DNA from: Candidatus Levyibacteriota bacterium
Lineage (GTDB): Bacteria; Patescibacteriota; Microgenomatia; Levybacterales; UBA12049
NCBI GenBank assembly: GCA_016182185.1
Contig: JACOXU010000001.1
Location: forward strand, 207,251-271,250
Direction: 5' to 3'
DNA length: 64,000 nucleotides
Part shown: piece after piece, positions 14,173 through 48,156 of the stretch
Layout of the letters: each line of letters opens with the position of its first letter
Position numbering within the stretch: the stretch's first letter is position 1
Notes under the pieces: generated by a model
Seen by the model: the letters and a program-made list of their open reading frames with translations, nothing else
The model's database searches: none
Told to the model about the DNA's origin: nothing
Program-made: the position numbers and the translations under genes

Positions 14173-15384
14173 CTACTTGTTGGTTTTAATAAATTCTTCA
14201 ATCGCATCAATCATATAATCGAGCATCTCTTTTGTCTGAGAAGAATGCACGCCGAGCAGGAATGAATCTCGATGAACCTTATCCGCTGTTTCTAGTCCGC
14301 CTACCAAAATGACAGGTAAGGATTTGAATCCTGATTGACGAAGAATATTTCCGGCGAAGAAAAGACGGGTTCTAATCTTATTTTTTTCTAAAAATTCTAC
14401 CAGATCTTTCCTACTAAAAGGAACTTTATCTCTCAAAGTTAAGGGAAAATTGAACCATGATGGATTAGCCTGTGGCAAAGTTTCAACAAAATGAAAGTAA
14501 TCTCCCAACTTATTTAATTTTGTCATAAGATATTTAAAATTTTTTCTTCTATCCCTGTGGAAATTTTCTAGCCTGTCCATTTGAACCAAGCCAAATGCTG
14601 CCATAATTTCAGGTACTTTAAAATTATAGCCTATTTCAGAATATGAATACCTATGGTCATAAGGAACTCCATTGCTTATGCTATCAAAATAAACACCATG
14701 ATCTTTGTCGTAACCTAATGTAATCTGTTCTTTTCCCCATTCCCTAAGGCTTTTAACCCGATAGGCAGACTTTTCATTTTTTGAAAGAACTATTCCTCCT
14801 GCACCTGCAAGTGTCATGTGATGGCTGGCATAGAAAGAGCATGTGGAAAAATTGCCAAACGAACCTGTTTTTCTACCATAAATTTCACTTCCTAAACCAT
14901 CACAGTTATCTTCAATAACCTGAAGCTTATACTTAGATGCAAGATGCATAATTCTTTTCATATCAACCGGATTACCAAGGGTGTGAGCAAAAATTATTGC
15001 TTTTATATCTTTATGTTTCTTAACCGCCTGTTCAACTCTATCAAGATCGATGTTTAAACTTTTAAGATCAACATCAACGGCAACAACCTGAAGATGGGAG
15101 TGCCATATAGGAGAAAGAGTCGAAGGAAATCCAGCTGCGCAGGTCAAAACCTTACTCCCCTCGGGAAGATTTAGCACACGTATAGCCAGAAGGTTTGCGG
15201 ATGAACCTGAGTTTACCAGACTTGCATAGGGCATTCCGATATATTTTGCAAAACGTTTTTCGAAACGCTCTGTCAGTCGTCCAGTACCAAGCCATCCGTA
15301 TTTTAGGCAATCCACGACTGCGTTTATCTCTTTCCCATCATAAACTGCTTTTGCAAAAAATATCTGATCTTTTCTTTTCTTCAC
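14173..15384 (-). CDS. DegT/DnrJ/EryC1/StrS-family PLP/PMP enzyme, E1-like sugar 3-dehydrase (RfbH/DdhC-type); GTG start
   Basis: VNSGSSANLLA is the DegT signature. The active-site segment reads SFYASHHMTLAGAGG, with His where aminotransferases have the PLP lysine; this is the hallmark of 3-dehydrases (E1, ColD). AGGA sits 7 nt before the GTG. Confidence 0.6.
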   Translation of the reverse strand: MKKRKDQIFFAKAVYDGKEINAVVDCLKYGWLGTGRLTERFEKRFAKYIGMPYASLVNSGSSANLLAIRVLNLPEGSKVLTCAAGFPSTLSPIWHSHLQVVAVDVDLKSLNIDLDRVEQAVKKHKDIKAIIFAHTLGNPVDMKRIMHLASKYKLQVIEDNCDGLGSEIYGRKTGSFGNFSTCSFYASHHMTLAGAGGIVLSKNEKSAYRVKSLREWGKEQITLGYDKDHGVYFDSISNGVPYDHRYSYSEIGYNFKVPEIMAAFGLVQMDRLENFHRDRRKNFKYLMTKLNKLGDYFHFVETLPQANPSWFNFPLTLRDKVPFSRKDLVEFLEKNKIRTRLFFAGNILRQSGFKSLPVILVGGLETADKVHRDSFLLGVHSSQTKEMLDYMIDAIEEFIKTNK

Positions 15385-15456: not shown

Positions 15457-16470
15457 TCAATGTTGCTTAACATTTTTCTTTACCCACAAATAAAGTTTTT
15501 CCAGCCCTTCATAAACACCTGTTTTTGGTTCCCATCCAAAATCTTTTTTTGCTTTACGAATGTCCGAGATATAAATACGCTGATCTCCCGGACGCCAGTC
15601 CGAAAAACTAACGTTTATCCTTCTTTTCATCAATTTTTCAAGCATTGGCTTGAATTCAATCCAAACGGAAATTGATTTATCTGTTCCTCCGCCGATGTTG
15701 TATATCTGCCCTTTCGTTTTACTTATGTTCTTTATTGCAAGCTCAAATGCCCTGATGAGATCTTGAATAAATAAAACATCTCTTACTTGTTTGCCGTCAC
15801 CGTAAATTGTGAACTTTTGTCCTAATGTAAGTGCAATAATAAACCACGCCAGCCAGCCCTGATCTTCGACTCCATATTGGTGCGGTCCGTAAATACAGGA
15901 TTGCCTAAAAACTATGGTTTTTAATCCATAGATTCTCGCATAATCCCGAACATATTGATCCGCAGCTCCCTTACTGCACCCATAGGGAGAATGAAAGTCT
16001 AAATTTCTCTCCTCTGAAATACCGTTTGGAAAATCCTCAAGTACGTACCTTGTTCTTTTTTCTCCAATCCTAAGATCTTCAAGTCCGCCGTAAACTTTAT
16101 TGGTTGAACTATACAAAATAATAGGTTTACTTTTGGATAAGCGGATTGACTCAAGGACATTTAATGTTGCAAGCGTGTTATTTTCAAAATCATCGCGTGG
16201 GTTTTCAACAGAGGTCGTAACTGCGACCTGACCTGCAAAGTGAAAAACAACATCACTGCCTTCTACCGCCTTTTTAAGAGAGGTGAAATCTCTTACATCT
16301 TTTTCCGCAACCCTTACCTTTGGGAAATTCTTTGATAAAAACACAAGATTTTTCTCAACATTTTTTCTTGAAAGATTATCATATATCGTCACTGAATCTT
16401 CTTTCTTTAAAAAATGTATAGCCGTATTTATACCGATGAAACCCGCTCCTCCCGTGATTAAAATTTTCAT
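15457..16470 (-). CDS. NAD-dependent SDR epimerase, CDP-paratose/tyvelose 2-epimerase-like
   Basis: GGAGFIG, DNLSRK, HFAGQVAVTTS, YSSTNKVYG, DFHSPYGCSKGAADQY and GDGKQVRDVL match my memory of tyvelose epimerase (RfbE). Not database-verified. Confidence 0.5.
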   Translation of the reverse strand: MKILITGGAGFIGINTAIHFLKKEDSVTIYDNLSRKNVEKNLVFLSKNFPKVRVAEKDVRDFTSLKKAVEGSDVVFHFAGQVAVTTSVENPRDDFENNTLATLNVLESIRLSKSKPIILYSSTNKVYGGLEDLRIGEKRTRYVLEDFPNGISEERNLDFHSPYGCSKGAADQYVRDYARIYGLKTIVFRQSCIYGPHQYGVEDQGWLAWFIIALTLGQKFTIYGDGKQVRDVLFIQDLIRAFELAIKNISKTKGQIYNIGGGTDKSISVWIEFKPMLEKLMKRRINVSFSDWRPGDQRIYISDIRKAKKDFGWEPKTGVYEGLEKLYLWVKKNVKQH

Positions 16471-19878: not shown

Positions 19879-20871
19879 TTATTCATCATCAAATAAATTC
19901 GTATTAAAATATTTATGATTTATTTTCAGATCCCTACTGATTAATAGATGTGAGAAATTCTTGTACAGCAATTTTGTAATCTCCAATGCGCTCGACGGTA
20001 TACAGTAAACTACTTTATATGGTATACTTTCCAATCCTTTATTCAAAGCTAAACATTCCTGATAATATTTATGAATATTTCTTGTACTACCCGAGTAAAT
20101 TTTATAATTTATTAATTCGGCCACGGAAACATGTCTTGTGTATTTACGTCCGATAATTTTATATGATTTTTCGAGAGCATCCTGATTAGAAGTATGTTCA
20201 TTATATACTAACGTAGCCAATTGCATGTGTTCAGTTTTTACTAAAACAGTGATCTTATTAGGCAAAAAATTGAATTTCTTCTTGATAAGAATTTTAAGCA
20301 GTGGGGCAATAAAAGGAGTAATTAGATCAACATCACGACAGAGATATGGATTAAAATAATCATTTCTATATAAAATGCCTGAATAAGACGTAATGTGCAA
20401 TATAACTCCTTTATCAACTTCTTCTAAACCCTGCACTTGTTCTAAGTATTTATGATCATGAATTGTTATTCTTGTAAATCGAGGAGGCTTGCTTATAAAT
20501 TCTACATACCCCCCTCTTACAACATGTACGTCTTTATCCTTCTTGATTAAAGTAAGTAAATCCCTCAAAACACCACTGTAAGCCAGGATGTCATCATCTC
20601 CCAACAGGAATGAATACTTAAAGCCTCTGATTTTGACATAGTTTGTAGCAAGCCTAAAATTTTTTGCAAAACCGATATTCCTTCTGTGTCTTACGTATGT
20701 AATCTTTGAATTTTTTGGAAAATACTCAGAAACAGGTTTTTTTGAAGCATTATCAAAAACAAATATGTGGAATGGGGCATGTTTTTGCATGAGCACAGAT
20801 TTTAAAGCTAGTCCAAATTCCTCAAACCTGTTATGGGTTAGAATAATTACAGCAATTTTGTTATGATTCAT
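19879..20871 (-). CDS. GT2-like glycosyltransferase
   Basis: IAVIILTHNR...FVFDNAS...LLGDDD (GT-A fold DxD). Confidence 0.55.
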   Translation of the reverse strand: MNHNKIAVIILTHNRFEEFGLALKSVLMQKHAPFHIFVFDNASKKPVSEYFPKNSKITYVRHRRNIGFAKNFRLATNYVKIRGFKYSFLLGDDDILAYSGVLRDLLTLIKKDKDVHVVRGGYVEFISKPPRFTRITIHDHKYLEQVQGLEEVDKGVILHITSYSGILYRNDYFNPYLCRDVDLITPFIAPLLKILIKKKFNFLPNKITVLVKTEHMQLATLVYNEHTSNQDALEKSYKIIGRKYTRHVSVAELINYKIYSGSTRNIHKYYQECLALNKGLESIPYKVVYCIPSSALEITKLLYKNFSHLLISRDLKINHKYFNTNLFDDE

Positions 20872-20895: not shown

Positions 20896-21756
20896 CTAAG
20901 GTAAGGTAGCTAAATATCTTATCAATGCAGTTCTCCATGGAGGCAAAACAACACCCAAAGATTTTGCGCTTGTATTCTTAAGAGAGGACACTACGGGAAT
21001 TCTTATACCTTTAAAAACTCCTTTTCTGTCTACAGGAACAATTTCTAAATTAAGCCTTCTTAATTTAACAATTTCCTGTGCAATTTTTACCCAAGAGCAA
21101 TAACCGGTGTTTACCAAATGATAAATTCCTGAACTTGCTTTTTTTTCCAATAATTCTAGTACTCCGCTTGCCAAGTCTTCTGCGTACGCTACGCTTACAA
21201 TTTGCTCCGATGAGATCTCCAAAGTTTTTTTGTTTTTCGCCTCATTTAATATATACAGTATGAAATTTCCTTTTTTAGCTCTACTTCCTCTCTGTCCTCC
21301 AAAAACTCCGCATGTTCTTATTATAATCGTATCCGAATTATAATTAATTGAAGCGATTTCTCCTGCAAATTTTGATAGTCCATAAATTTGCAAAGGGTTT
21401 GGTATATCTTTTTCAACATACGGACCCTCCTTGTCCCCATCGAAAACCCAACTCGTACTAAAATGAACAAATTTTATTTTTTTTTGACTGCATAAATCTC
21501 CTATGTTTCTTACAGCCAAGGTATTAATATTAAAGGCTTTTTGAGGATACCTCTCGCAATTTAATACTACATGATATGCGGCAGTATTAATAACAATTTC
21601 CGGTCTGACTCTATCGATCTTTTTTTTTAGTCTATCAAAATTAGTAATATCTAATTCTTGTTTACTAAAAGCGTGTATTTCATGTCCGTAAATATTAGAA
21701 ATGCGTTCAATTTGGGCGCCTATCTGACCATTTTTACCTAAAAGCAATATTCTCAT
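20896..21756 (-). CDS. RmlD-family (dTDP-4-dehydrorhamnose reductase-like) nucleotide-sugar 4-reductase
   Basis: MRILLLGKNGQIGAQI...INTAAY...NINTLAVRNI...YGLSKFAGE (YxxxK) follows RmlD/RfbD. Its substrate may be a CDP-sugar, given its neighbours. Confidence 0.65.
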   Translation of the reverse strand: MRILLLGKNGQIGAQIERISNIYGHEIHAFSKQELDITNFDRLKKKIDRVRPEIVINTAAYHVVLNCERYPQKAFNINTLAVRNIGDLCSQKKIKFVHFSTSWVFDGDKEGPYVEKDIPNPLQIYGLSKFAGEIASINYNSDTIIIRTCGVFGGQRGSRAKKGNFILYILNEAKNKKTLEISSEQIVSVAYAEDLASGVLELLEKKASSGIYHLVNTGYCSWVKIAQEIVKLRRLNLEIVPVDRKGVFKGIRIPVVSSLKNTSAKSLGVVLPPWRTALIRYLATLP

Positions 21757-21762
21757 TTTTTT

Positions 21763-22212
21763 TCATTTCATGACAATATCCCAGGAATATGGGACTTTTT
21801 GACTTAATGGATCTATTCTAATTATCTCTTTCTCATTGTATGGATGCGTAGAGCAATTAATAAGTACTGCTGGTTTTACGCCGATCGTTTTATAACCATT
21901 AATTACTCCCGGGGGAATTTGTACTAGGCAGTAATTATCTTCTCCAACAAATATTTCCTGAAGTCTCTTGTATGTTTTTGAATTCTTCCTATCATCAAAT
22001 AGGACCAGCTTAATCATTCCCTCCGCAACACAATAGTTTAGTGTCATTTTTTTGTGTTTATGCCAGCCTTTAATAATTCCCGGATAGCTTTTGGAAAAAT
22101 AGACTTCTCCAAAACGCTCGAACTCCCTATCGTCCTCTCTTAACATATGCATAATTGTGCCTCTTTCATCTGGGATTTTACTCAATTTTTTAATGTGGAC
22201 TCCGTCTATCAT
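21763..22212 (-). CDS. RmlC-like cupin sugar 3,5-(or 5-)epimerase
   Basis: DERGTIMHM..., KGWHKHKK (compare RGLHFQ) and a LNYCVAEGMIKLVLFDDR core; about 150 aa. Confidence 0.5.
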   Translation of the reverse strand: MIDGVHIKKLSKIPDERGTIMHMLREDDREFERFGEVYFSKSYPGIIKGWHKHKKMTLNYCVAEGMIKLVLFDDRKNSKTYKRLQEIFVGEDNYCLVQIPPGVINGYKTIGVKPAVLINCSTHPYNEKEIIRIDPLSQKVPYSWDIVMK

Positions 22213-23240
22213 ATCCAGTAAAGTTTTTTGTTTATTTTACGACTATCCAGTAAATATTTCAATTTTTTCATTCTGAAATAATCCGCGCTCTTAAGTTCCG
22301 CCGCAGTCAATTTGGTTTCCTTAAAAAATTTTATCAACTCACTAATACTCTTTTGCAAGTTCATCTTGAATCTGAATTTTGGAAATTTTGTGTTAAACTT
22401 GTAAAAATTCATTTTATAACTTCTTCTATCTCTGCTCTTCTTGTCGCCGAAAACTATTTTACATTCAGGCAATTGTCCATGTATCTCTTGAGCGATATTA
22501 ATAATTAAATAGTTTTGGCTATTTTCTCCTACCAGAAATACTTGATTGTGCACAAGCAACCTCTGACTCTCTATCATTAGCATAAAAACGCGGGATAAAT
22601 CTTTTACATGAATTACAGGACGCCAAGCTCTTCCATCGGATAGAAGAATTATCTTACGGTTAGCTATAGCACAGGCCACAAGATTATTAACCACAAGATC
22701 CAATCTTATGTTGGGAGAATAACCATGAACTGTCGGGTTACGCAGAATAATAGGAGAAAAATTTTCATTAGACAATTCCAGCAATGCTTTTTCTGTCTGA
22801 ACTTTGGTTTTTGCGTAACTGGTCAAAGGGTTGACTGAATCCTCCTCTGTTACCGAAGCTTTAAATTTATTTCCATAAACACTACAAGAAGAGGAAAATA
22901 TAAATCTCTTAACTCCTGTCTGCTTACTTAATTCTGCTAGTCGAACTGAAGCCGAAAAGTTTATTTCGCGAGTTAAGGCAGAATTTAGCTCAGCCATCGG
23001 ATCATTGGACAGAGCTGCTAGATGAACAACAGAGTCAACTCCTTCTAAATCCCTTTTCTCCAGTTTTCGAATATCTTTTTTGAGTCTTGGGTAGGAAAAC
23101 TTTTTCTTATTACTCACAAAATAGTCGGTGTCGCAACCGACAACAGAATATTTTTTGTGAACGAGCATAGGAACCAATACTGCTCCGATATAACCTTGAT
23201 CGCCGGTAACCAAAATTTTTTTCATAACTTTCTCTACCAA
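22209..23240 (-). CDS. NAD-dependent epimerase/dehydratase (SDR); candidate CDP-sugar dehydratase or reductase
   Basis: VTGDQGYIGAVL (GxxGxxG), SSSCSVYG, YAKTK (YxxxK). It lacks the GHTGFKG N-terminus of canonical CDP-glucose 4,6-dehydratase, so the exact reaction is unresolved. Confidence 0.6.
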   Translation of the reverse strand: MVEKVMKKILVTGDQGYIGAVLVPMLVHKKYSVVGCDTDYFVSNKKKFSYPRLKKDIRKLEKRDLEGVDSVVHLAALSNDPMAELNSALTREINFSASVRLAELSKQTGVKRFIFSSSCSVYGNKFKASVTEEDSVNPLTSYAKTKVQTEKALLELSNENFSPIILRNPTVHGYSPNIRLDLVVNNLVACAIANRKIILLSDGRAWRPVIHVKDLSRVFMLMIESQRLLVHNQVFLVGENSQNYLIINIAQEIHGQLPECKIVFGDKKSRDRRSYKMNFYKFNTKFPKFRFKMNLQKSISELIKFFKETKLTAAELKSADYFRMKKLKYLLDSRKINKKLYWI

Positions 23241-24025
23241 ATTTTCCAGACAGGATTATCCACCCATTGTTTGTTCAGCTCTTCTAAATCTTGATAAGTA
23301 TCTACAGCCGACCAATAACCGTTGTGGGCATAAACAGCCAATTGTCTTATCTTAACTAAACGCTCGAGTGCAATTTCTATTGTTTCTTCTGGTTTCACGT
23401 ATTTTAAAAAGGACTTTTTAAAAACCATAAAACCCCCATTAACATATTGATTAAGAAGAGGCTTTTGTACAAAATTTTTGATGATGCCATCCTTATCCGC
23501 TATCACTAAACCCCACTTTGATTTAGGATGTACACCTGTAATAGCGCCAACTGTTTTTTTTGATTTAAAATAAGATAACAATTTAAGTATGTTTATATTA
23601 CCTATACCATCTCCATAGGTTGCCATAAAAATGTCTGACTTGATATATTTTTTAACGCGGAGCAAACGTTCTCCAGTTAGGGTTTCAAGTCCTGTATTAA
23701 CAAAAGTAATTTTAAAATTTTCATGCTTTTCGACACTTCTTCGATAAATTATTTTCCTACCCGTTTTTACTTTAATAGTAAAATCATGAATAAGATACTC
23801 TTCATTTAGAAAGTAGCTTTTAATATAGTCTCCCTTATAGCCTAAAGCGATAATAAAATTATTAAATCCGTAATGAGAATAAATTTTCATGATATGCCAA
23901 AGAATCGGTTTCTCTCCGACAAGCACCATTGGTTTTGGACGAAATTCTGTTTCTTCTTTCATTCTAGTCCCTTGTCCGCCACAAAAAATAACAATAGGAA
24001 TATTCATGATTAACGAGTATAGCAT
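23234..24025 (-). CDS. rfbF: glucose-1-phosphate cytidylyltransferase
   Basis: IVIFCGGQGTRM...RPKPMVLVGEKPILWHIMKIYSHYGFNNFIIALGYKGDYIKSYF...GGFMVF...W.AVDT and a C-terminal PVWKIW match RfbF/DdhA closely. It is the first gene of the leftward operon. Confidence 0.8.
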   Translation of the reverse strand: MLYSLIMNIPIVIFCGGQGTRMKEETEFRPKPMVLVGEKPILWHIMKIYSHYGFNNFIIALGYKGDYIKSYFLNEEYLIHDFTIKVKTGRKIIYRRSVEKHENFKITFVNTGLETLTGERLLRVKKYIKSDIFMATYGDGIGNINILKLLSYFKSKKTVGAITGVHPKSKWGLVIADKDGIIKNFVQKPLLNQYVNGGFMVFKKSFLKYVKPEETIEIALERLVKIRQLAVYAHNGYWSAVDTYQDLEELNKQWVDNPVWKIW

Positions 24026-24030
24026 AGCTA

Positions 24031-24060
24031 ATTCTACCTTGTCGAATATTTTAATTTCAA
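24031..24060 (-). promoter_or_regulatory. sigma70-like promoter of the 24-kb leftward operon; leaderless
   Basis: On the minus strand: TTGAAA (24060-24055), an 18-nt spacer, TAGAAT (24036-24031), then 5 nt to the ATG at 24025. Confidence 0.4.
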
Positions 24061-24067
24061 GTATAAT
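24039..24067 (+). promoter_or_regulatory. sigma70-like promoter; near-leaderless transcript for 24076..25290
   Basis: TTGTCG (24039-44), a 17-nt spacer, TATAAT (24062-67); the ATG is 8 nt downstream. It overlaps the leftward promoter face-to-face. Confidence 0.45.
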
Positions 24068-24075
24068 CCTGAATA

Positions 24076-25290
24076 ATGATTAGCAGTCCAAAAAAAATAA
24101 GAATCCCATATGCTTTGGCTGTATATGATGAGAAAGAAAAAAAACGAATTATAAAAGTTTTAGACGAACACAGAACCAATCTTGGGAGTGAAACTATTTC
24201 GTTTGAGAAAAGTGTGGCAAGACTTTTTGGTAAAAAATTTGGGGTAATGGTAAATTCCGGATCTTCGGCAAATTATCTCGCAGTTGAGTTACTTCAGCTT
24301 CCTCCCGGATCAGAAGTGATCACTCCTCTTTTGACTTTCTCAACAACGGTTGCACCACTTATTCAGCACCGCCTTATTCCAGTTTTTGCAGACGTTGAAC
24401 CAGGTAAATATACGATTGACATAAATCAAATCGAAAAACTCATCTCAAAAAAAACAAAAGCTTTAATGATTCCGCTACTTTTAGGTAATGTGCCAGACAT
24501 GCATGAACTCGCAGGTCTTGCCAAAAAATACAAACTACGATTTATTGAGGACTCATGTGATACATTGGGTGCAAGGTTTAACAAAAAACCTACCGGAAGT
24601 TTTTCCGATATTTCTACTACTAGCTTTTTTGGGTCACATATTATAACTACCGGAGGGAATGGAGGCATGATCTTGATGAATAAATCTAAATGGAAAGACA
24701 GAGCGAAAGTTTTAAGAGGTTGGGGAAGAAGTTCTTCCCTTTTTAGTGAGTCAGAGCAAATTTCAAAACGTTTCAAAACAAAGATAGGTGATATTCCATA
24801 TGATGCTAAATTTATATTTGAAGAGATTGGATATAATTTCCTTCCTTCGGAAATTGGCTCCGCCTTTGGTAACGAGCAGCTTAAAAAACTTCCGACATTC
24901 AGAAGAAAAAGGAGAATACATTTTGCAAGATTACGGAAATTTTTTAAAAAGTATGAAGAATTTTTTATCCTTCCCATACAAAACCCCTCTGCGGAAACTC
25001 AATGGCTCGCTTTCCCGCTGACGATTAGGAAAGAGTCTCCTTTTTCCAGAATGGAAATTACTACATATCTTGAAAAAAATAATGTTCAAACTCGTCCAAT
25101 TTTTACGGGGAGCGTTCTTAGGCAACCTGGCTTTAGAAACATAGTTCATCGCTCTGTTAATAATGGGGCTCCAGTGACTCGCGAAGTTATGGAACGAGGT
25201 TTTCTAATAGGTTGTCATCATGGACTTGAAGAAAAACATATAGAAAAGCTGAAGGAACTTTTCAGGAGATTTTTAAAACGGTACGCTTAA
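24076..25290 (+). CDS. DegT-family PLP/PMP enzyme, second E1-like sugar 3-dehydrase paralog
   Basis: VNSGSSANYLA; the active-site segment SFFGSHIITTGGNGG has His in place of Lys, as in 14173..15384. Confidence 0.6.
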   Translation: MISSPKKIRIPYALAVYDEKEKKRIIKVLDEHRTNLGSETISFEKSVARLFGKKFGVMVNSGSSANYLAVELLQLPPGSEVITPLLTFSTTVAPLIQHRLIPVFADVEPGKYTIDINQIEKLISKKTKALMIPLLLGNVPDMHELAGLAKKYKLRFIEDSCDTLGARFNKKPTGSFSDISTTSFFGSHIITTGGNGGMILMNKSKWKDRAKVLRGWGRSSSLFSESEQISKRFKTKIGDIPYDAKFIFEEIGYNFLPSEIGSAFGNEQLKKLPTFRRKRRIHFARLRKFFKKYEEFFILPIQNPSAETQWLAFPLTIRKESPFSRMEITTYLEKNNVQTRPIFTGSVLRQPGFRNIVHRSVNNGAPVTREVMERGFLIGCHHGLEEKHIEKLKELFRRFLKRYA

Positions 25291-26750: not shown

Positions 26751-27470
26751 TTAAAAATATCCTAAAGCCCGAAGTCTTTTCATGATTACTTCTCTATCCT
26801 TTGCTCGTCCAGACCTTTCATCTCCCCCAGACTTTGCTGGTTTTGTAAATTCTTTCTCGCCCAGAGACCTGTACCCCAAATCGTATAATGAGATGTAGGG
26901 AACATTTTTACTATGAATGTACTCCCATATATCTTCTTCTGTCCAATGAAGAAGCGGGTGAATCCGGATATGATCTTCTCGCTTGGAAAAATATTTCTCA
27001 TCTATTCTTTCCTTATGCTCGTCCCATCGAATTCCAATAACAAGAGCGGGCAGTTTGTGTTCTTTTACCGCCTGTTTTAGAAGAATAATTTTCATCATAC
27101 TTGCAAAGGTTACCCTATCCCTTTTTGTTTTTTGTTTTTTATACTCGGATGCTAATTTTTTCGAGGGCTTTATAGTAATTAGGTTAAGATTCCACATTCT
27201 GTTTGTCCTTTCTATAAAATTGTAAACCTCCTCAAAATCTAATCCCGTATCCAGAAATAAAACAGGAAATTTTGCTTTTGCTCCAAACATTTCTCGAATT
27301 AAATGAAGTAGGACCGTGGAGTCCTTACCTCCTGTCCAGAATATTGCCATCTGCTCCCCATGCGCTTTAAACGCTTCATTTAATTTCTCTCTACTTTTAG
27401 CAATCTTTTTACTAAGAGAGGTGATTAATTTTTTTTTCATTTTTTTATTTTTATTTTTATTTAATTTCAT
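26751..27470 (-). CDS. CysD-like PP-loop ATP pyrophosphatase (PAPS reductase/sulfate adenylyltransferase subunit 2 family)
   Basis: WTGGKDSTVLLHL is the SGGKDS PP-loop. LFLDTGLDFEEVY matches the CysD HVDTGWKF region. The C-terminus ERSGRAKDREVIMKRLRALGYF resembles the E. coli CysD C-terminus (ERQGRVIDRD...KKRQGYF). Confidence 0.55.
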   Translation of the reverse strand: MKLNKNKNKKMKKKLITSLSKKIAKSREKLNEAFKAHGEQMAIFWTGGKDSTVLLHLIREMFGAKAKFPVLFLDTGLDFEEVYNFIERTNRMWNLNLITIKPSKKLASEYKKQKTKRDRVTFASMMKIILLKQAVKEHKLPALVIGIRWDEHKERIDEKYFSKREDHIRIHPLLHWTEEDIWEYIHSKNVPYISLYDLGYRSLGEKEFTKPAKSGGDERSGRAKDREVIMKRLRALGYF

Positions 27471-41752: not shown

Positions 41753-42936
41753 ACAAATACTCTTTTCAGGTGCTTAGCAAGAAGAGACGGATAATCAAAT
41801 TGTTTTGCATACCGAAGAGATGATCTCCTATATTCTTTTAAGCGTTTGTCATTACCTATGATTGATATTATAGCACTTGCTGCTTCTTTCGAACTCTCTT
41901 TTATTACTATTCCTCCTCCTGCATCCTGAATATCATACGCATTATAGAAAGTATCAGTCATAACAACAGGTATACCAGCTCCTAAATATAATTTAGTCTT
42001 TGCAGGATCCGCATAAAAGGTGAGACCACTTTCATCTTCATTGGTATATGTTGCAATACCTACACCACATGAAGCAATAATATTTTCCACTTCTTTGTGA
42101 TCTTCGACATATCCCATAAATTTTACATTATCTGAAACTCCTAAATTCTTTGCTAATTTTTCAAGCGAGTTTTTATAATCACCTTTTCCGATAATAATAA
42201 GAATAAAATCAGGGATTCTTTCAAGAATTATCGGCATTGCGCGAATAACAATTTGAACACCCATTCTTTTGACAATATGTCCTACAAATATTGCTGAATG
42301 TTTATTAACATTGAAAAATGGTAATCTTTTAATTCTATCAATCCAGACACCCTCAGGGACAAGTTTTTGTTTTTTGTCATACTTATTATTCAACTCAAGT
42401 AGATTCCGTCTTCCTTCAATCACTCTAGGGGACAGTATCCAAACTTCATCGGAAAAAATTACTGCAAGTTTTTCAACCCAATGATAAAAATTATTCAAAA
42501 GTTTATTTTCAAATCTTTGAGGGACGAAATCGACTGTATAAAAAATGACCTTATCTACAAAACCCAGTTTTTTTAAAATTACTCCAGATATGGTATTGAG
42601 ATTATCAGCGCCGATGTAAAGATCCCATCTCTTTCTCTTACTCAAAACGAAAACAATATTTAAAATGCCGTCTTTTAAATAAGTCAGTAATCCCTTATTC
42701 TTTAAAAAAGAAAACTTCTTCATTTCTACAGCTTTACCTTTTTTTGAAAAACGATAAAAGGATAGTTCATTTTCTCTTTCTGGATGCAATGGGTGGCCTA
42801 TGTATAAAAGTTTTTTTATTTTTATAATACGAAGGAATTCTTCCAGGTGCTGTATAAATGCAGTTGATGAATAATGTGTTGCAATGATAACAGATTTGTT
42901 TTGAAGAATAGTGTTGTCATTATCGCGCTTGTGCAT
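41749..42936 (-). CDS. GT4-family glycosyltransferase
   Basis: The C-domain ...IIIGKGDYKNSLEKLAKNLGVSDNVKFMGYV...GIPVVMTD is typical of GT4. Confidence 0.75.
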   Translation of the reverse strand: MHKRDNDNTILQNKSVIIATHYSSTAFIQHLEEFLRIIKIKKLLYIGHPLHPERENELSFYRFSKKGKAVEMKKFSFLKNKGLLTYLKDGILNIVFVLSKRKRWDLYIGADNLNTISGVILKKLGFVDKVIFYTVDFVPQRFENKLLNNFYHWVEKLAVIFSDEVWILSPRVIEGRRNLLELNNKYDKKQKLVPEGVWIDRIKRLPFFNVNKHSAIFVGHIVKRMGVQIVIRAMPIILERIPDFILIIIGKGDYKNSLEKLAKNLGVSDNVKFMGYVEDHKEVENIIASCGVGIATYTNEDESGLTFYADPAKTKLYLGAGIPVVMTDTFYNAYDIQDAGGGIVIKESSKEAASAIISIIGNDKRLKEYRRSSLRYAKQFDYPSLLAKHLKRVFV

Positions 42937-44026: not shown

Positions 44027-44030
44027 AAAT

Positions 44031-44963
44031 TTAATCGTTTAAATAGGATTTGTACGTTGTTTTAATTCCTTGTTCAATACCGGTTTCTGGTAACCATTTA
44101 AAAATTTTTTTGCATAGGGAAACATCCATAACTTTATAGGGAGCTCCATCCGGTTTTGTTTTATCAAAGACTAACCTACCTTTATATCCAACAATTTTTT
44201 TAATTAACTTTGCCAAATCTAATATGGTTATTCCCTTGCCAACTCCTATATTTATTGGCTCTATGAAGTAATCGATATTTATAGCTTTGATCAGTGCTTC
44301 AGCCCCATCGTCAACATATAACCATTCTCTGACAGGTTTTCCTGTTCCCCATACCACAACTTCAGATAGCCCCTTCTTTTTGGCATTAATAATTTTCATA
44401 AGAAGAGCTCCTAAAGCATGGGATCTTTCGGGATCAAAGTAATCACCGGGTCCGTACATATTTGGTAAGACTAAGTTGATAAATTTCATTCCGTACTGCC
44501 GTGCATACGCCCATGTTTGCGCCCACTGTGCTTTTCTAACCATGCCGTACACCATAACTGAGGGGTGAAGCGGACCATTCCAAAACTCAGATTCTTTAAA
44601 ATCTTTATTCACCACATCAGGATACGCACAATTGGCAATGGGACTTATAAAAAGCTCAACTCCAGTAAGTCTTGCTGCCTCTATTAAATTTGTGCTGATC
44701 AAAATATTATTAAAATATACTTCACCTGCATGATCCAATCCAAACTTAATTCCGCCTATATAGGCAGCTGAGTGAATTACGATATCAGCTTTATTTTTCC
44801 TGAAGTAGGTAAGGGTTTTGTTAAAATTTCTGAAGTCAACTCCACTAGTTAAAGAGGCAGAAACAACCTTGTATTGTTTTTTTTCTTTTAGTTTTTTGAC
44901 TATCCTTTTACCTAAAAATCCATTTCCACCGGCAACAAAAACAGTTTTATTTATCATGCGCAC
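44031..44963 (-). CDS. fcl: GDP-L-fucose synthase-like 3,5-epimerase/4-reductase (Fcl/GMER family; ColC is a homolog)
   Basis: VVVWGTGKPVREWLYVDD and VGYKGRLVFDKTKPDGAPYKVMDV closely parallel E. coli Fcl ([42 protein letters not shown]). Confidence 0.7.
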   Translation of the reverse strand: MRMINKTVFVAGGNGFLGKRIVKKLKEKKQYKVVSASLTSGVDFRNFNKTLTYFRKNKADIVIHSAAYIGGIKFGLDHAGEVYFNNILISTNLIEAARLTGVELFISPIANCAYPDVVNKDFKESEFWNGPLHPSVMVYGMVRKAQWAQTWAYARQYGMKFINLVLPNMYGPGDYFDPERSHALGALLMKIINAKKKGLSEVVVWGTGKPVREWLYVDDGAEALIKAINIDYFIEPINIGVGKGITILDLAKLIKKIVGYKGRLVFDKTKPDGAPYKVMDVSLCKKIFKWLPETGIEQGIKTTYKSYLND

Positions 44964-44996
44964 AGATTAATCTTCAATATCATATAGAATATACGA

Positions 44997-46208: not shown

Positions 46209-46237
46209 TAGATATCTAAATACGTAATAAACCCATG

Positions 46238-47143
46238 CTATCTTTTTTTAAAATAGTCTACCGTTTGTCTAAGTCCCTCTCCTATAGTTGTCTTTGGTTG
46301 CCAATTAAGTAGCTTTGACGCTTTATGAATATCTAGTAACCATTCATCCGCTTCCCCCAATCTTTCCGGAATTTGTCCGTAGAAAACCTTAGATTTGCTT
46401 TTTGCGAAAGATAGTATAAGATCTACTATTTTACGTAGAGAATAACTTCTACCGCCGCTAATATTTATTATATTTACACCATTGTTAAATGTTGCTTCTT
46501 TAATTCTAATAAGTGCCTCAACAACGTCATCTATAAAAACATAGTCTCTTTTTTTTAGCCCTGAATTTAGGTCAATTTGTTTATTATTTATTGCCCGGAC
46601 AATAATCTGTGGTATTAATCTATGTATTCTATCGCCTGGCCCATACATAGTTCCTATTCGTGCAATAATTAATTGAAATTTAAATTCTTTTGCATAAATC
46701 ATGCACAATCTTTCGGCCGCCAGTTTAGAAATTGAGTATCCTGAGGGAGGATCCACTTTTGATTCTTCAGTGTAAGGAATATTGCTGTTTCCATATATTT
46801 CTTCTGTACTGATGAAAACAAATTTTTTTGGTGGATAATCTCTTAGAGATTCTAAAAGATTGAGAGTTCCTATCGTATTTATCTCAAGACAATTTTTGTA
46901 TACCTCATAATCCCTTGAAAGATTAACTAAACCCCCTATGTGGTAGATAACTGATGATCTTGCCCTGCTTATTGTTTCTTTTACCTCCTCAGGAAACAAA
47001 AAATTCATCTTTTGAATTTTTAGATTCTTATTTTCGCCTGAAGCAGTCGCAAAAACGTCTACTTTTTGTTTTGAAAGATACGCCAAGAAGCGTCTTCCTA
47101 AAAAACTTGTAGCGCCTGTCATCAATATTGTATCTTTTATCAT
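46238..47143 (-). CDS. NAD-dependent epimerase/dehydratase (SDR)
   Basis: The start was moved to the internal ATG at 47141-47143 (MIKDTILMTGATSFLGRRF), which forms an ATGA overlap with the upstream gene. STEEIYG and YSISK (YxxxK) are present. Confidence 0.65.
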   Translation of the reverse strand: MIKDTILMTGATSFLGRRFLAYLSKQKVDVFATASGENKNLKIQKMNFLFPEEVKETISRARSSVIYHIGGLVNLSRDYEVYKNCLEINTIGTLNLLESLRDYPPKKFVFISTEEIYGNSNIPYTEESKVDPPSGYSISKLAAERLCMIYAKEFKFQLIIARIGTMYGPGDRIHRLIPQIIVRAINNKQIDLNSGLKKRDYVFIDDVVEALIRIKEATFNNGVNIINISGGRSYSLRKIVDLILSFAKSKSKVFYGQIPERLGEADEWLLDIHKASKLLNWQPKTTIGEGLRQTVDYFKKR

Positions 47144-48156
47144 ATATGTAGAATTTTTTTGAGTGTTGCAAAAGAATATGCCAGAAGATACACCCAACAC
47201 ACAATTGGATGAAGAAACCAAGCTCGATCCCGAATGACAATGTATCCTCTTAAGCTGTCCATAAATGGCTTTACTAAAGTGATCGTATACAAAATGAATA
47301 AAATAAGTTTAATCGTGTCACTCAGTTTTTTTGGATTGTAGATATAATATCTCCTTTCCATTCTACTGTTTTTAGATTTAAAATAATACGAAAGAAGAAA
47401 GGCCATTCTTTTTTTCATCAACGTTCTTAGATTAACTGCCGTATCATGTGAGATGCTATTTTTAACTATCGCATACGTGTCGTATTTTTTATCAAGCAAA
47501 TCAACAAAAACATCCATGTGAAGAAACTTTGACGGATCACTTTGAGCATGCGCAAGTAATAAGTCTTTTCTATATACAACTCCATTGCATCCAACAGTCG
47601 GAAGAGTTTCGTGAGTGAACTTTACTATATAATAACGCTGTGTTTCCTTTAAAATTGTACCAACGGCCCACTTTTTCTTAAAATAAGGAAGTCGATCGGG
47701 TTTACCTATGTAGAAAACGACAGGATCTAACACTCCAAATAACGCAACGTATCTGTTAAAAATGTTGTCTGTTTCTGTATATGTAAAGTAAATTGTACCA
47801 GCATGAATTATTTTCTTTTCACTCATAAAAGGCTCAACCATTTGCTTGAGCCAATTTTTATGGGGAATGTAATTGTCTGCATCTAATGATACGATGAGAT
47901 TATTTTTTGCATACATCAAGCCAATTGCTCTTTGAGCCTCGGCGTTATGCGGAATCGGACTTTTAATTATTTTGAAAGAATGATTCTTTAATATTTTTTC
48001 TGTATTGTCAGTAGATCCTCCATCGATATTTAAATATTCAATTTTTTCTTTGGGGTAATCTTGAAACTTAATGGCCTGAACGCATTTTTTGATCGTCCTT
48101 CCATTATTGTAGGTAACAATTACTATCGAGATTTTTGGTAATTTTTTATTTTTCAT
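47140..48156 (-). CDS. GT2-family glycosyltransferase with C-terminal TM helices
   Basis: ISIVIVTYNNGRTI...NIDGGSTDNT...LDADN. Confidence 0.8.
   Translation of the reverse strand: MKNKKLPKISIVIVTYNNGRTIKKCVQAIKFQDYPKEKIEYLNIDGGSTDNTEKILKNHSFKIIKSPIPHNAEAQRAIGLMYAKNNLIVSLDADNYIPHKNWLKQMVEPFMSEKKIIHAGTIYFTYTETDNIFNRYVALFGVLDPVVFYIGKPDRLPYFKKKWAVGTILKETQRYYIVKFTHETLPTVGCNGVVYRKDLLLAHAQSDPSKFLHMDVFVDLLDKKYDTYAIVKNSISHDTAVNLRTLMKKRMAFLLSYYFKSKNSRMERRYYIYNPKKLSDTIKLILFILYTITLVKPFMDSLRGYIVIRDRAWFLHPIVCWVYLLAYSFATLKKILHI

What the first reader, a model, noticed from the sequence alone, without database searches (positions are those of the whole stretch)
20896..25290. CDP-3,6-dideoxyhexose (ascarylose-like) module without an E3 reductase
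Adjacent genes encode glucose-1-P cytidylyltransferase (rfbF, near-certain), an SDR, an RmlC-like cupin epimerase and an RmlD-like 4-reductase. Divergently transcribed is a DegT-family enzyme with His replacing the PLP lysine (SFFGSHIITTGGNGG), the signature of E1/DdhC (or ColD) 3-dehydrases. This composition mirrors the Yersinia asc/ddh pathway (DdhA, DdhB, E1, AscE, AscF). No [2Fe-2S]/flavin E3 (DdhD) is visible anywhere in the window, and the SDR lacks the canonical DdhB N-terminus. 3,6-dideoxyhexoses are rare outside a few Gram-negative pathogens and nematodes.
Basis: partly seen in the sequence, partly recalled or inferred. Interest (0 to 1): 0.6.

Follow-up and report, generated by a model that had tools for sequence, protein, structure and literature searches.

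The report
Iron-sulfur-free 3-deoxysugar gene module
A candidate-phylum bacterium carries a real gene set for a rare 3-deoxy sugar, and the "missing" reductase is missing because its dehydratase lacks the iron-sulfur site that would need one; a different enzyme also replaces the usual first dehydratase.

Summary
The five genes are at the stated coordinates. The His of the DegT-family protein aligns with catalytic His220 of Yersinia E1 (PDB 3bcx).

1. The DegT protein (E1a, 24076-25290) is not E1 in the strict sense. It keeps one of E1's four [2Fe-2S] cysteines and has two cysteines in total. It falls below the NCBIfam RfbH cut-off. All 50 full-length orthologues examined share these traits, and none of 80 fetched loci has an E3-like gene within 10 kb. 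About 35 lie in rfbF-rfbG-E1a order. The missing E3 is therefore expected; a ColD-type PLP/glutamate mechanism on a CDP-sugar is inferred.

2. The SDR is not DdhB. It lacks the dehydratase acid/base pair, and its closest solved relative is Cj1427, a C4-dehydrogenase. Its family follows rfbF-like genes and never co-occurs with rfbG (0 of 80 loci). The product may therefore be a 3-deoxyhexose, not a 3,6-dideoxyhexose. This is unresolved.

Verdict: a new variant of a known kind, untested biochemically.

The parts
24076..25290 (+). E1a: His-type DegT/PMP enzyme, inferred CDP-hexose 3-dehydratase without a [2Fe-2S] site
   Evidence: RfbH model 345 bits, below the 423 cut-off. PDB scores: E1 3bcx 231 bits, ColD 173 bits. 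His188 aligns with E1 His220. The E1 Cys251/253/261 loop reads RSSSLFSESEQISKRF. The protein has only two Cys. 50 full-length orthologues share these traits.
24026..24075 (.). 50-bp divergent intergenic region between E1a and the rfbF-led array
   Evidence: Promoter-like hexamers occur on both strands (24039-24067 on +, 24060-24031 on -). The region-wide count is not above shuffles (58 found, 62 expected), so this is only consistent with a divergent promoter.
23234..24025 (-). RfbF-like glucose-1-phosphate cytidylyltransferase (probable start 24007)
   Evidence: TIGR02623 236 bits, full length, below the 300 cut-off. The next family scores 80 bits. 1tzf E 5e-48.
22209..23240 (-). SDR3: Cj1427-like NAD-dependent SDR, inferred CDP-hexose C4-oxidising entry enzyme in the place of DdhB/RfbG
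   Evidence: No TIGR02622 hit. The family profile scores 172 bits (E 1e-49) against 6vo6, with the next hit at 107 bits. Invariant FSSSCSxYG, YAxxK and SP..R.DLVVNN motifs. An rfbF-like gene is present in 56 of 80 loci, and an rfbG-like gene in none.
21763..22212 (-). Small cupin of the RmlC/FdtA clan: 4-keto-sugar epimerase (C5 and/or C3), or possibly a 3,4-ketoisomerase
   Evidence: PF00908 51.6 bits, PF05523 29.3 bits. Best PDB hit 3ejk, E 2e-30. KGWHxH is conserved in module cupins.
20896..21756 (-). RmlD-like NAD(P)H-dependent 4-ketoreductase
   Evidence: TIGR01214 234.6 bits, above the 224 cut-off. It follows the cupin in the window, L001, L005, L089, L090 and L092.
19879..20871 (-). GT2 glycosyltransferase conserved directly downstream of the module; likely user of the product
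   Evidence: Orthologues score 386-438 bits and lie directly after the RmlD-like gene in L001, L089 and L090.
15457..16470 (-). CDP-tyvelose 2-epimerase-like SDR
   Evidence: 9rl0 (TaTyvE) E 6e-103; 1orr E 3e-88; STNKVYG and YGCSK motifs.
14173..15384 (-). E1b: second His-type DegT without [2Fe-2S] ligands, 37% identical to E1a
   Evidence: RfbH model 407 bits, below 423. 3bcx 314 bits with His conserved; the loop reads KEQITLGYDKDHGVYF. The orthogroup of 27 listed homologues, those carrying a source name being candidate-phyla (CPR) bacteria, has no Cys in this loop (one member has a single Cys). 37% identity to E1a.
46238..47221 (-). SDR46: candidate NDP-hexose 4,6-dehydratase, likely partner of E1b (probable start 47146)
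   Evidence: STEEIYG aligns with STDEVYG of dTDP-glucose 4,6-dehydratase 6bi4. Orthologues lie directly upstream of E1b orthologues in L088 and L092.
44031..44963 (-). Fcl/ColC-like SDR, possibly the terminal epimerase/reductase of the E1b branch
   Evidence: GDP-L-fucose synthase model 256 bits, below 500. An Fcl-like gene lies in the SDR46-E1b cluster of L088 and near the E1a modules of L005, L006 and L145.

Best explanation
This is an operon-like module of a Candidatus Levybacteria surface-glycan locus. It makes a CDP-activated 3-deoxy sugar without the E1/E3 iron-sulfur electron-transfer system. Steps are marked as shown or inferred.

1. RfbF-like enzyme makes CDP-D-glucose. Inferred from homology.
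2. SDR3, a Cj1427-like SDR that takes DdhB's place, oxidises C4 to give the free 4-keto sugar. The position in the pathway is shown by conserved synteny; the chemistry is inferred. I lean about 55:35 towards plain C4-dehydrogenation with the 6-OH kept, rather than 4,6-dehydration. SDR3 has Cys-Ser where every known 4,6-dehydratase has an acid/base pair. A separate dehydratase-type SDR also exists in the same locus.
3. E1a forms a PMP ketimine at C4, and its active-site His drives elimination of the 3-OH. E1a has no iron-sulfur site. The enamine is therefore released and hydrolysed as in ColD, and PMP is regenerated from an amino donor such as L-glutamate. No E3 or NADH is needed. This step is inferred.
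4. The cupin epimerises next to the 4-keto group.
5. The RmlD-like enzyme reduces C4.
6. The adjacent GT2 uses the product.

The product would be a CDP-3-deoxy-L-hexose. If SDR3 also dehydrates, it would be an ascarylose-like CDP-3,6-dideoxy-L-hexose.

A second branch runs in parallel: SDR46 (4,6-dehydratase-like), E1b, a reductase and a TyvE-like 2-epimerase. It probably gives a true 3,6-dideoxyhexose.
For: - His aligns with E1 His220. The cofactor motifs NSGSSAN and IEDSCD are kept.
- Only Cys193 of E1's C193/C251/C253/C261 is kept, and the protein has two Cys in total.
- All 50 full-length orthologues at 42-72% identity have the His and no Cys at the three cluster columns.
- An E3 motif scan (ferredoxin CxxxxCxxC plus RxYS plus GxGxxP) finds nothing in 80 loci with 10-kb flanks, or in the window.
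- The same scan does find an FNR-like gene next to a Cys-rich E1 in L123, which serves as a positive control.
- About 35 loci have rfbF, a bona fide rfbG (459-521 bits) and E1a in that order.
- L021 has rfbF-rfbG-E1a-reductase-TyvE, the tyvelose gene set minus E3.
- Cultured Roseibium has rfbF-rfbG-E1a with no E3.
- The unit E1a | RfbF-SDR3-cupin-RmlD (followed by the GT2 in L001, L089 and L090) recurs in L001, L005, L089 and L090.
- L145 (RfbF-SDR3-SDRx-cupin-E1a) and L006 (RfbF-SDRx-cupin-RfbG::E1a) show that SDR3 and RfbG are interchangeable.
- The SDR3 family profile hits Cj1427 at 172 bits against 107 for the next solved structure, and shares the SPxxRLDLxVN motif.
- Cj1427 plus a PLP/glutamate C3-dehydratase gives 3-deoxy sugars in vitro (PMC10680097).
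- The ColD and C. jejuni C3-dehydratase mechanism is documented (PMC8987622; PMC10440746).
Against: - No enzyme of this module or of its orthogroups has been assayed.
- SDR3 sits exactly where RmlB or RfbG sits in RmlABCD-like operons. In L116, L123 and L134 it also pairs with canonical Cys-rich E1. It could therefore be an unconventional 4,6-dehydratase.
- Its invariant Cys114 might act as an acid/base.
- Identity to Cj1427 is modest: 101 bits for the single sequence.
- The glutamate dependence of E1a is inferred only from the absence of a cluster.
- Most proteobacterial E1a orthologues carry three other semi-conserved Cys of unknown role, although the window protein does not.
- RfbF is below its equivalog cut-off.
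- The cupin has an HxHKK motif and an FdtA Pfam hit, so it could be a 3,4-ketoisomerase.
Confidence: 0.5

Rival explanations
1. SDR3 is a non-canonical CDP-glucose 4,6-dehydratase. The module then makes an ascarylose-like CDP-3,6-dideoxy-L-hexose, still with a cluster-free, E3-independent E1a.
For: - The gene order RfbF-SDR3-cupin-RmlD mirrors RmlA-B-C-D.
- SDR3 and rfbG are mutually exclusive and interchangeable.
- E1a orthologues elsewhere follow bona fide rfbG, so their usual substrate is the 6-deoxy sugar.
- SDR3 family members also pair with canonical Cys-rich E1.
- A redox-neutral dehydratase needs no external oxidant.
Against: - SDR3 has invariant S-C-S where all known 4,6-dehydratases have an ionisable pair: T-D-E, T-S-E or T-D-K.
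- It has no TIGR02622 hit.
- Its closest solved relative is a dehydrogenase that does not dehydrate.
- L092 and the window also carry a dehydratase-type SDR (SDR46, S-T-E-E). Two isofunctional enzymes would be redundant in a very small genome.
Confidence: 0.3
2. E1a works like E1 or SpnQ and depends on a reductase encoded elsewhere: an E3 outside the window, or general ferredoxin or flavodoxin reductases.
For: - SpnQ uses general cellular reductases (PMC8987622).
- Only 64 kb of a contig of about 617 kb was inspected.
- In sequence, E1a is closer to E1 than to ColD.
Against: - Both E1 and SpnQ need their own [2Fe-2S] cluster to accept electrons.
- E1a keeps one of four ligands and has two Cys in all.
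- No E3-like gene lies within 10 kb in any of the 80 fetched loci, 53 of which carry an orthologue. A reductase is found beside a Cys-rich E1.
Confidence: 0.07
3. E1a and/or E1b are His-variant transaminases that make 4-amino-4-deoxy sugars, or they are catalytically dead paralogues.
For: - SpnQ shows glutamate-dependent transamination without a reductase.
- RefSeq annotates the orthologues as DegT-family aminotransferases.
- SDR3 modules elsewhere pair with ordinary Lys-type DegT.
Against: - The His is invariant in all 50 full-length orthologues and in all 119 top homologues of E1b.
- Contexts such as L021 and Roseibium fit 3-deoxygenation.
- ColD and E1 showed no transaminase activity under comparable conditions.
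- The window has a separate Lys-type DegT.
Confidence: 0.08
4. The cupin is a 3,4-ketoisomerase (FdtA/QdtA-like). The RfbF-SDR3-cupin-RmlD core would then make a C3/C4-inverted hexose, and E1a would feed a separate side branch.
For: - PF05523 scores 29.3 bits, above the 23 cut-off.
- The conserved WHxHKK motif resembles the FdtA H-x-H motif as I recall it.
- The core occurs without any E1-like gene in L091 and in most metagenome loci.
- Some loci have RfbF-SDR3-cupin followed by a Lys-type DegT.
Against: - PF00908 (RmlC family) scores higher, at 51.6 bits.
- The divergent E1a is conserved with the core in the window, L001, L089, L090 and L104.
- The C. jejuni precedent uses cupin epimerases.
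Confidence: 0.1

Closest known systems
E1/E3 (DdhC-DdhD, AscC-AscD, RfbH-RfbI) of Yersinia pseudotuberculosis and Salmonella: CDP-4-keto-6-deoxy-D-glucose 3-dehydrase and its reductase
   Same: DegT fold. His in place of the PLP lysine. CDP-sugar context next to rfbF. It is the closest solved relative of both window paralogues (231 and 314 bits).
   Different: Three of the four [2Fe-2S] cysteines are absent. The roughly 30-residue N-terminal extension is absent. Both paralogues score below the RfbH cut-off. There is no E3 partner in the window or beside any orthologue. The upstream enzyme is not DdhB.
ColD (GDP-4-keto-6-deoxy-D-mannose 3-dehydratase) and the C. jejuni HS:5/HS:11 C3-dehydratases
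   Same: His-type, cluster-free and needing no reductase. They are the likely mechanistic model: PLP/PMP cycling with L-glutamate, then release of the enamine, then hydrolysis.
   Different: They act on GDP-sugars in gmd/colC or heptose contexts. They are more distant in sequence (173 bits) and form a separate branch in the rough tree. The window proteins sit with CDP-type genes.
Cj1427-Cj1430-Cj1428 of Campylobacter jejuni: C4-dehydrogenase, cupin 3,5-epimerase and C4-reductase acting on GDP-heptose
   Same: The same three-enzyme logic: oxidise C4 without 6-deoxygenation, epimerise with a cupin, then reduce C4. The SDR3 family's best solved relative is Cj1427. Adding a C3-dehydratase to Cj1427 gives 3-deoxy sugars in vitro.
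   Different: GDP-heptose versus a CDP-hexose. T-N-S versus S-C-S at the active site. The reductase there is Fcl-like, not RmlD-like. Use of alpha-ketoglutarate as oxidant is unknown for SDR3. No natural pairing of Cj1427 with a C3-dehydratase is reported there.
SpnQ (dTDP-4-keto-2,6-dideoxyglucose 3-dehydrase)
   Same: A His-type DegT 3-dehydrase with no dedicated E3 gene in its cluster.
   Different: SpnQ has the [2Fe-2S] motif and needs general reductases. The window proteins have no such motif.
RmlA-RmlB-RmlC-RmlD (dTDP-L-rhamnose pathway)
   Same: The same gene order and enzyme classes: nucleotidyltransferase, SDR entry enzyme, cupin and RmlD-type reductase.
   Different: The nucleotidyltransferase is cytidylyl-type. 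The SDR lacks the RmlB acid/base pair. A 3-dehydratase is added.
CDP-tyvelose 2-epimerase (Salmonella TyvE; Thermodesulfatator TaTyvE)
   Same: The gene at 15457-16470 matches 9rl0 at E 6e-103 and keeps the STNKVYG and YGCSK motifs.
   Different: It lies next to a cluster-free E1b, and no paratose synthase is recognisable. Its substrate here is unknown.

Membership tests
E1 / DdhC / RfbH (NF011936) | DegT fold with His replacing the PLP-binding Lys | tested here: met
   His188 (E1a) and His189 (E1b) align with E1 His220, and with Lys in the H220K structure 3bb8.
E1 / DdhC / RfbH (NF011936) | [2Fe-2S] binding motif C-X57-C-X1-C-X7-C (Cys193, 251, 253, 261). The motif is recalled from Agnihotri 2004; the positions were checked on the 3bcx sequence. 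| tested here: not met
   Only the Cys193 equivalent is present. The loops read RSSSLFSESEQISKRF (E1a) and KEQITLGYDKDHGVYF (E1b). E1a has two Cys in total.
E1 / DdhC / RfbH (NF011936) | Score at or above the curated equivalog cut-off (423 bits) | tested here: not met
   345 bits (E1a) and 407 bits (E1b). Both matches start at profile position 32-33 of 440.
E1 / DdhC / RfbH (NF011936) | Dedicated E3 (DdhD/AscD) ferredoxin-FNR reductase partner | tested here: not met
   None in the window by Pfam or motif scan. None within 10 kb in 80 loci. The rest of the genome was not searched.
ColD-type 3-dehydratase | His-type DegT without an iron-sulfur site | tested here: met
ColD-type 3-dehydratase | GDP-mannose pathway context (gmd, colC) and closest sequence relationship to ColD | tested here: not met
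   The context is rfbF-type. ColD scores 173 bits against 231 for E1. ColD-like sequences form a separate branch.
ColD-type 3-dehydratase | PMP regenerated from L-glutamate, with ammonia released | not testable with these tools
   Needs an enzyme assay.
DdhB / RfbG CDP-glucose 4,6-dehydratase (TIGR02622) | Match to the equivalog model (cut-off 278 bits) | tested here: not met
   SDR3 has no TIGR02622 hit at E<=1e-3. Bona fide rfbG genes in related loci score 459-521 bits.
DdhB / RfbG CDP-glucose 4,6-dehydratase (TIGR02622) | Acid/base pair after the catalytic Thr/Ser (T-D-K; T-D-E in RmlB) | tested here: not met
   SDR3 has S-C-S, invariant across 120 homologues. RfbG in L018 has TTDKCYE.
Cj1427-type NDP-sugar C4-dehydrogenase | Closest relationship to Cj1427 among solved SDRs, with shared family motifs | tested here: met
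   The profile of 22 SDR3 homologues scores 172 bits (E 1e-49) against 6vo6, with the next hit at 107 bits. Both share the SP..R.DL.VN motif and a non-ionisable pair at the dehydratase positions.
Cj1427-type NDP-sugar C4-dehydrogenase | Releases the 4-keto sugar with the 6-OH kept; tightly bound NADH reoxidised by alpha-ketoglutarate | not testable with these tools
   Needs an assay. Context shows only that downstream enzymes need a free keto sugar.
RfbF glucose-1-phosphate cytidylyltransferase (TIGR02623) | Equivalog score of 300 bits or more | tested here: inconclusive
   236 bits over the full profile. The next family scores 80 bits. 1tzf matches at E 5e-48 over the full length.
RmlD 4-ketoreductase (TIGR01214) | Equivalog score of 224 bits or more | tested here: met
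   234.6 bits. The nucleotide on the substrate is presumably CDP rather than dTDP; this is inferred.
RmlC-like cupin epimerase (PF00908) | Pfam gathering score; catalytic His | tested here: met
   51.6 bits against a cut-off of 27. WHxH is conserved. The protein also passes PF05523 (FdtA) at 29.3 bits, so the regiochemistry is open.
CDP-tyvelose 2-epimerase | High similarity to TyvE structures and the STNKVYG / YxxxK motifs | tested here: met
   9rl0 E 6e-103; 1orr E 3e-88.

The most novel reading that the evidence does not exclude
The module is a natural route to a CDP-3-deoxy-hexose that keeps its 6-hydroxyl. A Cj1427-type C4-dehydrogenase (SDR3) feeds an iron-sulfur-free, E3-independent, CDP-specific 3-dehydratase (E1a), followed by a cupin and a C4-reductase. 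This enzyme combination has so far only been assembled in vitro for GDP-heptoses. The two enzymes could be cofactor-coupled: glutamate would give alpha-ketoglutarate at the dehydratase, and the dehydrogenase would use that alpha-ketoglutarate as its oxidant. The SDR3-led core is widespread in candidate-phyla bacteria and also occurs in Asgard archaea.
Probability: 0.3. Interest if true: 0.75.

Novelty: new variant of a known kind. Interest (0 to 1): 0.5.

Why it matters
Textbook 3,6-dideoxyhexose biosynthesis on CDP-sugars needs the E1/E3 iron-sulfur pair. A 2022 review lists only E1, ColD and SpnQ as characterised 3-dehydratases.

Two separate clades of E1 relatives here lack the cluster, and the E1a clade sits beside CDP-sugar genes in many phyla. 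Reference annotation calls them plain 'aminotransferases'. If they work like ColD, three things follow:
- C3-deoxygenation of CDP-sugars is commonly iron-free and reductase-free.
- Deoxysugar potential in uncultured and marine bacteria is under-annotated.
- These enzymes would be easier tools for making CDP-deoxysugars than E1/E3, which is hard to reconstitute.

The Cj1427-like SDR that replaces DdhB is a large family of unknown chemistry. It may define a new entry point into CDP-hexose modification.

Tried and rejected
- **E3 in the window.** I looked with Pfam on the ORFs of 110 aa or more (a few were identified by other calls instead) and with a six-frame motif scan. None was found.
- **DdhB in the window.** No SDR reaches TIGR02622. 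The best are SDR46 at 78 bits and the TyvE-like gene at 71 bits.
- **An alternative cysteine site in E1a.** I rejected this for the window protein, which has two Cys. Three semi-conserved Cys columns in proteobacterial orthologues remain unexplained.
- **Promoter and terminator scan.** Counts equal the shuffles, so it is not used as evidence.
- **Literature.** Searches for a characterised CDP-linked cluster-free 3-dehydratase, or for ddhD-less clusters, found nothing relevant in the held library. Several key papers are not held: Smith 2008, Wu 2007, Cook 2006 and the two Cj1427 papers. The identity of 6vo6 as Cj1427 and the exact cluster motif therefore rest on my memory plus the sequence.
- **Structure prediction.** Not run. 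The model coordinates cannot be inspected, and sequence profiles already ranked the relatives.
- **The neighbour-joining tree** is rough and is used only for grouping.

Full report
**Setting.** The window has 33% G+C. Almost all of it is one strand-biased surface-glycan locus with GT2 and GT4 glycosyltransferases, PMT_2/GT-C membrane transferases, methyltransferases and several sugar-nucleotide enzymes. Identical proteins are recorded from a Candidatus Levybacteria (Patescibacteria) MAG on a contig of about 617 kb.

The ORFs at 20896-21756, 21763-22212, 22209-23240, 23234-24025 (all minus strand) and 24076-25290 (plus strand) are real. Their best matches are as follows.
- RmlD-like: TIGR01214 234.6 bits, above the 224 cut-off.
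- Cupin: PF00908 51.6 bits and PF05523 29.3 bits.
- Extended SDR: PF01370 133 bits.
- RfbF-like: TIGR02623 236 bits over the full length, below the 300 cut-off, with the next family at 80 bits. PDB 1tzf matches at E 5e-48.
- DegT family: PF01041 247 bits.

The four minus-strand genes overlap or are 6 bp apart. They continue without a strand switch into two GT2 genes, a methyltransferase, a membrane protein, a TyvE-like SDR, a second DegT, a 687-aa membrane protein and a GT2 of 308 aa. The DegT gene is divergent across a 50-bp spacer.

The His in SFFGSHIITTGGNGG aligns with His220 of Yersinia E1 (3bcx). It also aligns with the Lys of the H220K mutant (3bb8) and with the Lys of the window's ordinary DegT at 42920-44026.

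**The DegT enzyme (E1a) is not E1 in the strict sense.** From the 3bcx sequence, E1's cysteines lie at 193, 251, 253 and 261. That spacing is X57, X1, X7, the published unusual [2Fe-2S] motif as I recall it. The 2022 review confirms that E1 and SpnQ carry a four-cysteine cluster motif and ColD does not.
- E1a keeps only the Cys193 equivalent. The 251-261 loop reads RSSSLFSESEQISKRF.
- The whole protein has two cysteines.
- It lacks E1's N-terminal extension of about 30 residues and scores 345 bits against the RfbH cut-off of 423.
- The cofactor-binding motifs NSGSSAN and IEDSCD are intact.

A protein with no cluster has nothing to receive electrons from E3. The absence of E3 is therefore expected rather than a gap.

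**This is a family property, not a local decay.**
- A scan of species-representative genomes returned 53 loci with relatives at 42-72% identity. They come from Patescibacteria, Levyibacteriota, Saccharibacteria, Coxiellaceae, Legionellaceae, Thiotrichales, Pelagibacteraceae, Prochlorococcus, Rhizobiaceae and an archaeon.
- All 50 full-length orthologues have the His. None has Cys at the three cluster columns. The loop consensus is RSWGRSSSLFxESExIxxRF.
- A motif scan for E3 found nothing in any of the 80 loci with 10-kb flanks, or in the window. The scan looks for a plant-type ferredoxin CxxxxCxxC...C plus RxYS plus GxGxxP.
- The same scan did find a 242-aa FNR-like gene right after a canonical Cys-rich E1 in locus L123. 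That is a useful positive control.
- About 35 loci show the order rfbF, rfbG, E1a. In the three loci scanned, the rfbG scores 459-521 bits on TIGR02622 in two (L012, L018), and a shorter rfbG-like gene in L003 scores 216, below the 278 cut-off.
- L006 has an apparent RfbG::E1a fusion of 747 aa. SDR-E1 fusions are common among cluster representatives.
- L021 carries rfbF-rfbG-E1a-reductase-TyvE, the Salmonella tyvelose gene set minus E3.
- Cultured Roseibium aggregatum has rfbF-rfbG-E1a followed by a C-methyltransferase and an oxidoreductase. The orthologue is annotated only as 'DegT family aminotransferase'.

From this I infer that the E1a clade performs C3-deoxygenation of CDP-4-keto sugars alone. 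The only known chemistry for a cluster-free His-type DegT is that of ColD and the C. jejuni C3-dehydratases. There, PMP is made from PLP and L-glutamate, the 3-OH is eliminated, and the enamine is released and hydrolysed to the 3-deoxy-4-keto sugar plus ammonia. This mechanism is inferred, not shown.

**The SDR (SDR3) is not DdhB.**
- It has no TIGR02622 hit.
- Where 4,6-dehydratases carry an ionisable pair after the catalytic Thr/Ser, SDR3 has S-C-S. The pairs seen here are T-D-K in rfbG (L018), T-D-E in the RmlB of L084 and T-E-E in SDR46. S-C-S is invariant in 120 homologues, within FSSSCSxYG.
- A profile of 22 family members hits PDB 6vo6 at 172 bits (E 1e-49), against 107 bits for the next structure.
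- I recall 6vo6 as Cj1427. That is the GDP-heptose C4-dehydrogenase that releases a 4-keto sugar, keeps the 6-OH and uses alpha-ketoglutarate as oxidant. Its function is documented in PMC10680097.
- Cj1427 shares the otherwise unusual SPxxRLDLxVN motif and also has a non-ionisable pair, T-N-S.

**Context fixes SDR3's place in the pathway.**
- Four homologues at 46-56% identity all sit in NTP-transferase, SDR3, cupin, SDR order. They come from candidate-phyla bacteria and a Promethearchaeota MAG.
- Of 80 metagenome loci, 56 carry an rfbF-like gene and none carries an rfbG-like gene.
- What follows the cupin varies: an RmlD-like reductase, another SDR, a Lys-type DegT, E1a, E1b or a canonical E1.
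- L145 (RfbF-SDR3-SDRx-cupin-E1a) and L006 (RfbF-SDRx-cupin-RfbG::E1a) differ essentially by swapping SDR3 for RfbG.

SDR3 is therefore the keto-generating entry enzyme. Whether it also removes the 6-OH cannot be decided by computation. I lean towards no, for three reasons: the active-site pair, the Cj1427 relationship, and the presence of a dehydratase-type SDR in the same loci (next section). The RmlABCD-like gene order and the pairing with canonical E1 keep the 4,6-dehydratase reading alive. Raushel's group combined Cj1427 with a C3-dehydratase in vitro and obtained GDP-3-deoxy-heptoses, which they describe as novel. The window may hold a natural CDP-hexose version of that combination.

- E1b (14173-15384) is 37% identical to E1a. 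It is closer to E1 (314 bits; RfbH model 407 of 423 bits), has the His, and again lacks the cluster cysteines.
- Its orthogroup has 27 members at 60% identity or more. The members that carry a source name come from candidate-phyla (CPR) bacteria. None has a Cys in the cluster loop except one member with a single Cys.
- Of the other top homologues, 83 have three or more Cys in that loop. A rough tree places E1a and E1b in different cluster-free clades.
- E1b orthologues lie directly after SDRs with S-T/S-E-E (orthologues of the window's SDR46, 46238-47221) in L088 and L092.
- In L084, the E1b orthologue follows an RmlA-like gene and a bona fide RmlB (465 bits, above the 365 cut-off). E1b may therefore act on a dTDP- rather than a CDP-sugar.
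- In the window, E1b adjoins a CDP-tyvelose 2-epimerase-like gene (9rl0, E 6e-103). TaTyvE is known to epimerise C2 of CDP-glucose.
- The likely second route is SDR46, then E1b, then a reductase (perhaps the Fcl-like 44031-44963), then TyvE.

**The cupin and the reductase.** The cupin's best solved relative is the uncharacterised 3ejk (E 2e-30). C. jejuni heptose 3- and 3,5-epimerases match only weakly. Module cupins conserve KGWHxH, and the protein also passes the FdtA Pfam threshold. Epimerisation at C5 and/or C3 is the default reading, but a 3,4-ketoisomerase is not excluded. The RmlD-like enzyme passes the RmlD equivalog cut-off. A GT2 (19879-20871) follows it in the window, L001, L089 and L090.

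**How common is this?** Against 1.84 billion cluster representatives, E1a has 979 relatives at E<=1e-30. By a rough loop test on the top 148, 56 are His-type without Cys and 40 are His-type with three or more Cys. The genes are therefore not rare. It is the biochemistry that is unexplored: the held literature has no characterised CDP-linked, cluster-free 3-dehydratase.

**Verdict.** The 'missing E3' is explained by a cluster-free E1 relative. The pathway's first enzyme is a Cj1427-like SDR rather than DdhB, so the product could be a 3-deoxy- or a 3,6-dideoxy-hexose. This is a new variant of a known kind, of moderate interest, and testable with four or five recombinant enzymes.

Noticed in passing
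L086:10001-11209 (36-kb JGI contig Ga0393997_0000867): An E1b orthologue (P0017, 68% identity) sits on a phage-like contig with an HNH endonuclease, an SU10-type adaptor, GT genes and many unannotated ORFs. A tblastn search also finds E1-like genes in 61 phage records, mostly Synechococcus phages, at about 31% identity.
   Followed up: partly
L084:8319-11209: In a Nomurabacteria contig, the E1b orthologue follows an RmlA-like gene (TIGR01207 240 bits) and a bona fide RmlB (TIGR01181 465 bits). The E1b clade may therefore be a dTDP-linked, cluster-free 3-dehydratase.
   Followed up: partly
L088:7413-10824: An E1b orthologue is followed directly by a second His-type DegT of ColD-like sequence (SFYVGHH, RAHGW) and an Fcl-like SDR. 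That places two different 3-dehydratase types side by side.
   Followed up: no
L123:416-5062: An SDR3-family gene is followed by a canonical Cys-rich E1, a 242-aa FNR-like flavoprotein with no ferredoxin domain, a cupin and an SDR. This may be a truncated E3 variant.
   Followed up: no
window 24076-25290, alignment columns 192, 200 and 380-382: Most proteobacterial E1a orthologues have semi-conserved Cys at columns 192, 200 and 380 (75-88%), plus near-invariant His381/His382. The window protein has only Cys380. The role of these residues is unknown; a metal site is possible.
   Followed up: partly
window 26751-27470 (-): A PAPS-reductase-family gene (PF01507, 148 bits) is conserved next to E1a in L001 and L090 as well. 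Its link to the sugar pathway is unexplained.
   Followed up: no
window 42920-47221 (-): A further sugar module holds a Lys-type DegT aminotransferase, an Fcl-like SDR, a phosphoesterase-family protein (PF04185) and the SDR46 dehydratase-like gene. A second cupin lies at 50983-51537 and a GalE at 58330-59325.
   Followed up: partly
L006:8942-11185: An apparent in-frame fusion of RfbG and E1a (747 aa). Many 600-870-aa SDR-E1 fusions appear among the cluster representatives. Some E1 domains are split by insertions of about 220 aa, which may be inteins.
   Followed up: partly
L084:14420-17122: A UDP-glucose/GDP-mannose dehydrogenase gene carries an intein (PF14890) in the Nomurabacteria locus.
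   Followed up: no
L173 (Roseibium aggregatum plasmid NZ_CP045632, 343905-348530): A cultured alphaproteobacterium has rfbF-rfbG-E1a followed by a TylC3-like C-methyltransferase and an oxidoreductase. This suggests a branched 3,6-dideoxy sugar made without E3. RefSeq calls the E1a orthologue an aminotransferase.
   Followed up: partly
L012:14581-18345: In Gammaproteobacteria and Aquirickettsiella-type loci, rfbF-rfbG-E1a is followed by an acetaldehyde dehydrogenase, a 4-hydroxy-2-oxovalerate aldolase and a thiamine-diphosphate enzyme. This resembles yersiniose-type branched-sugar synthesis, which I recall only from memory.
   Followed up: no
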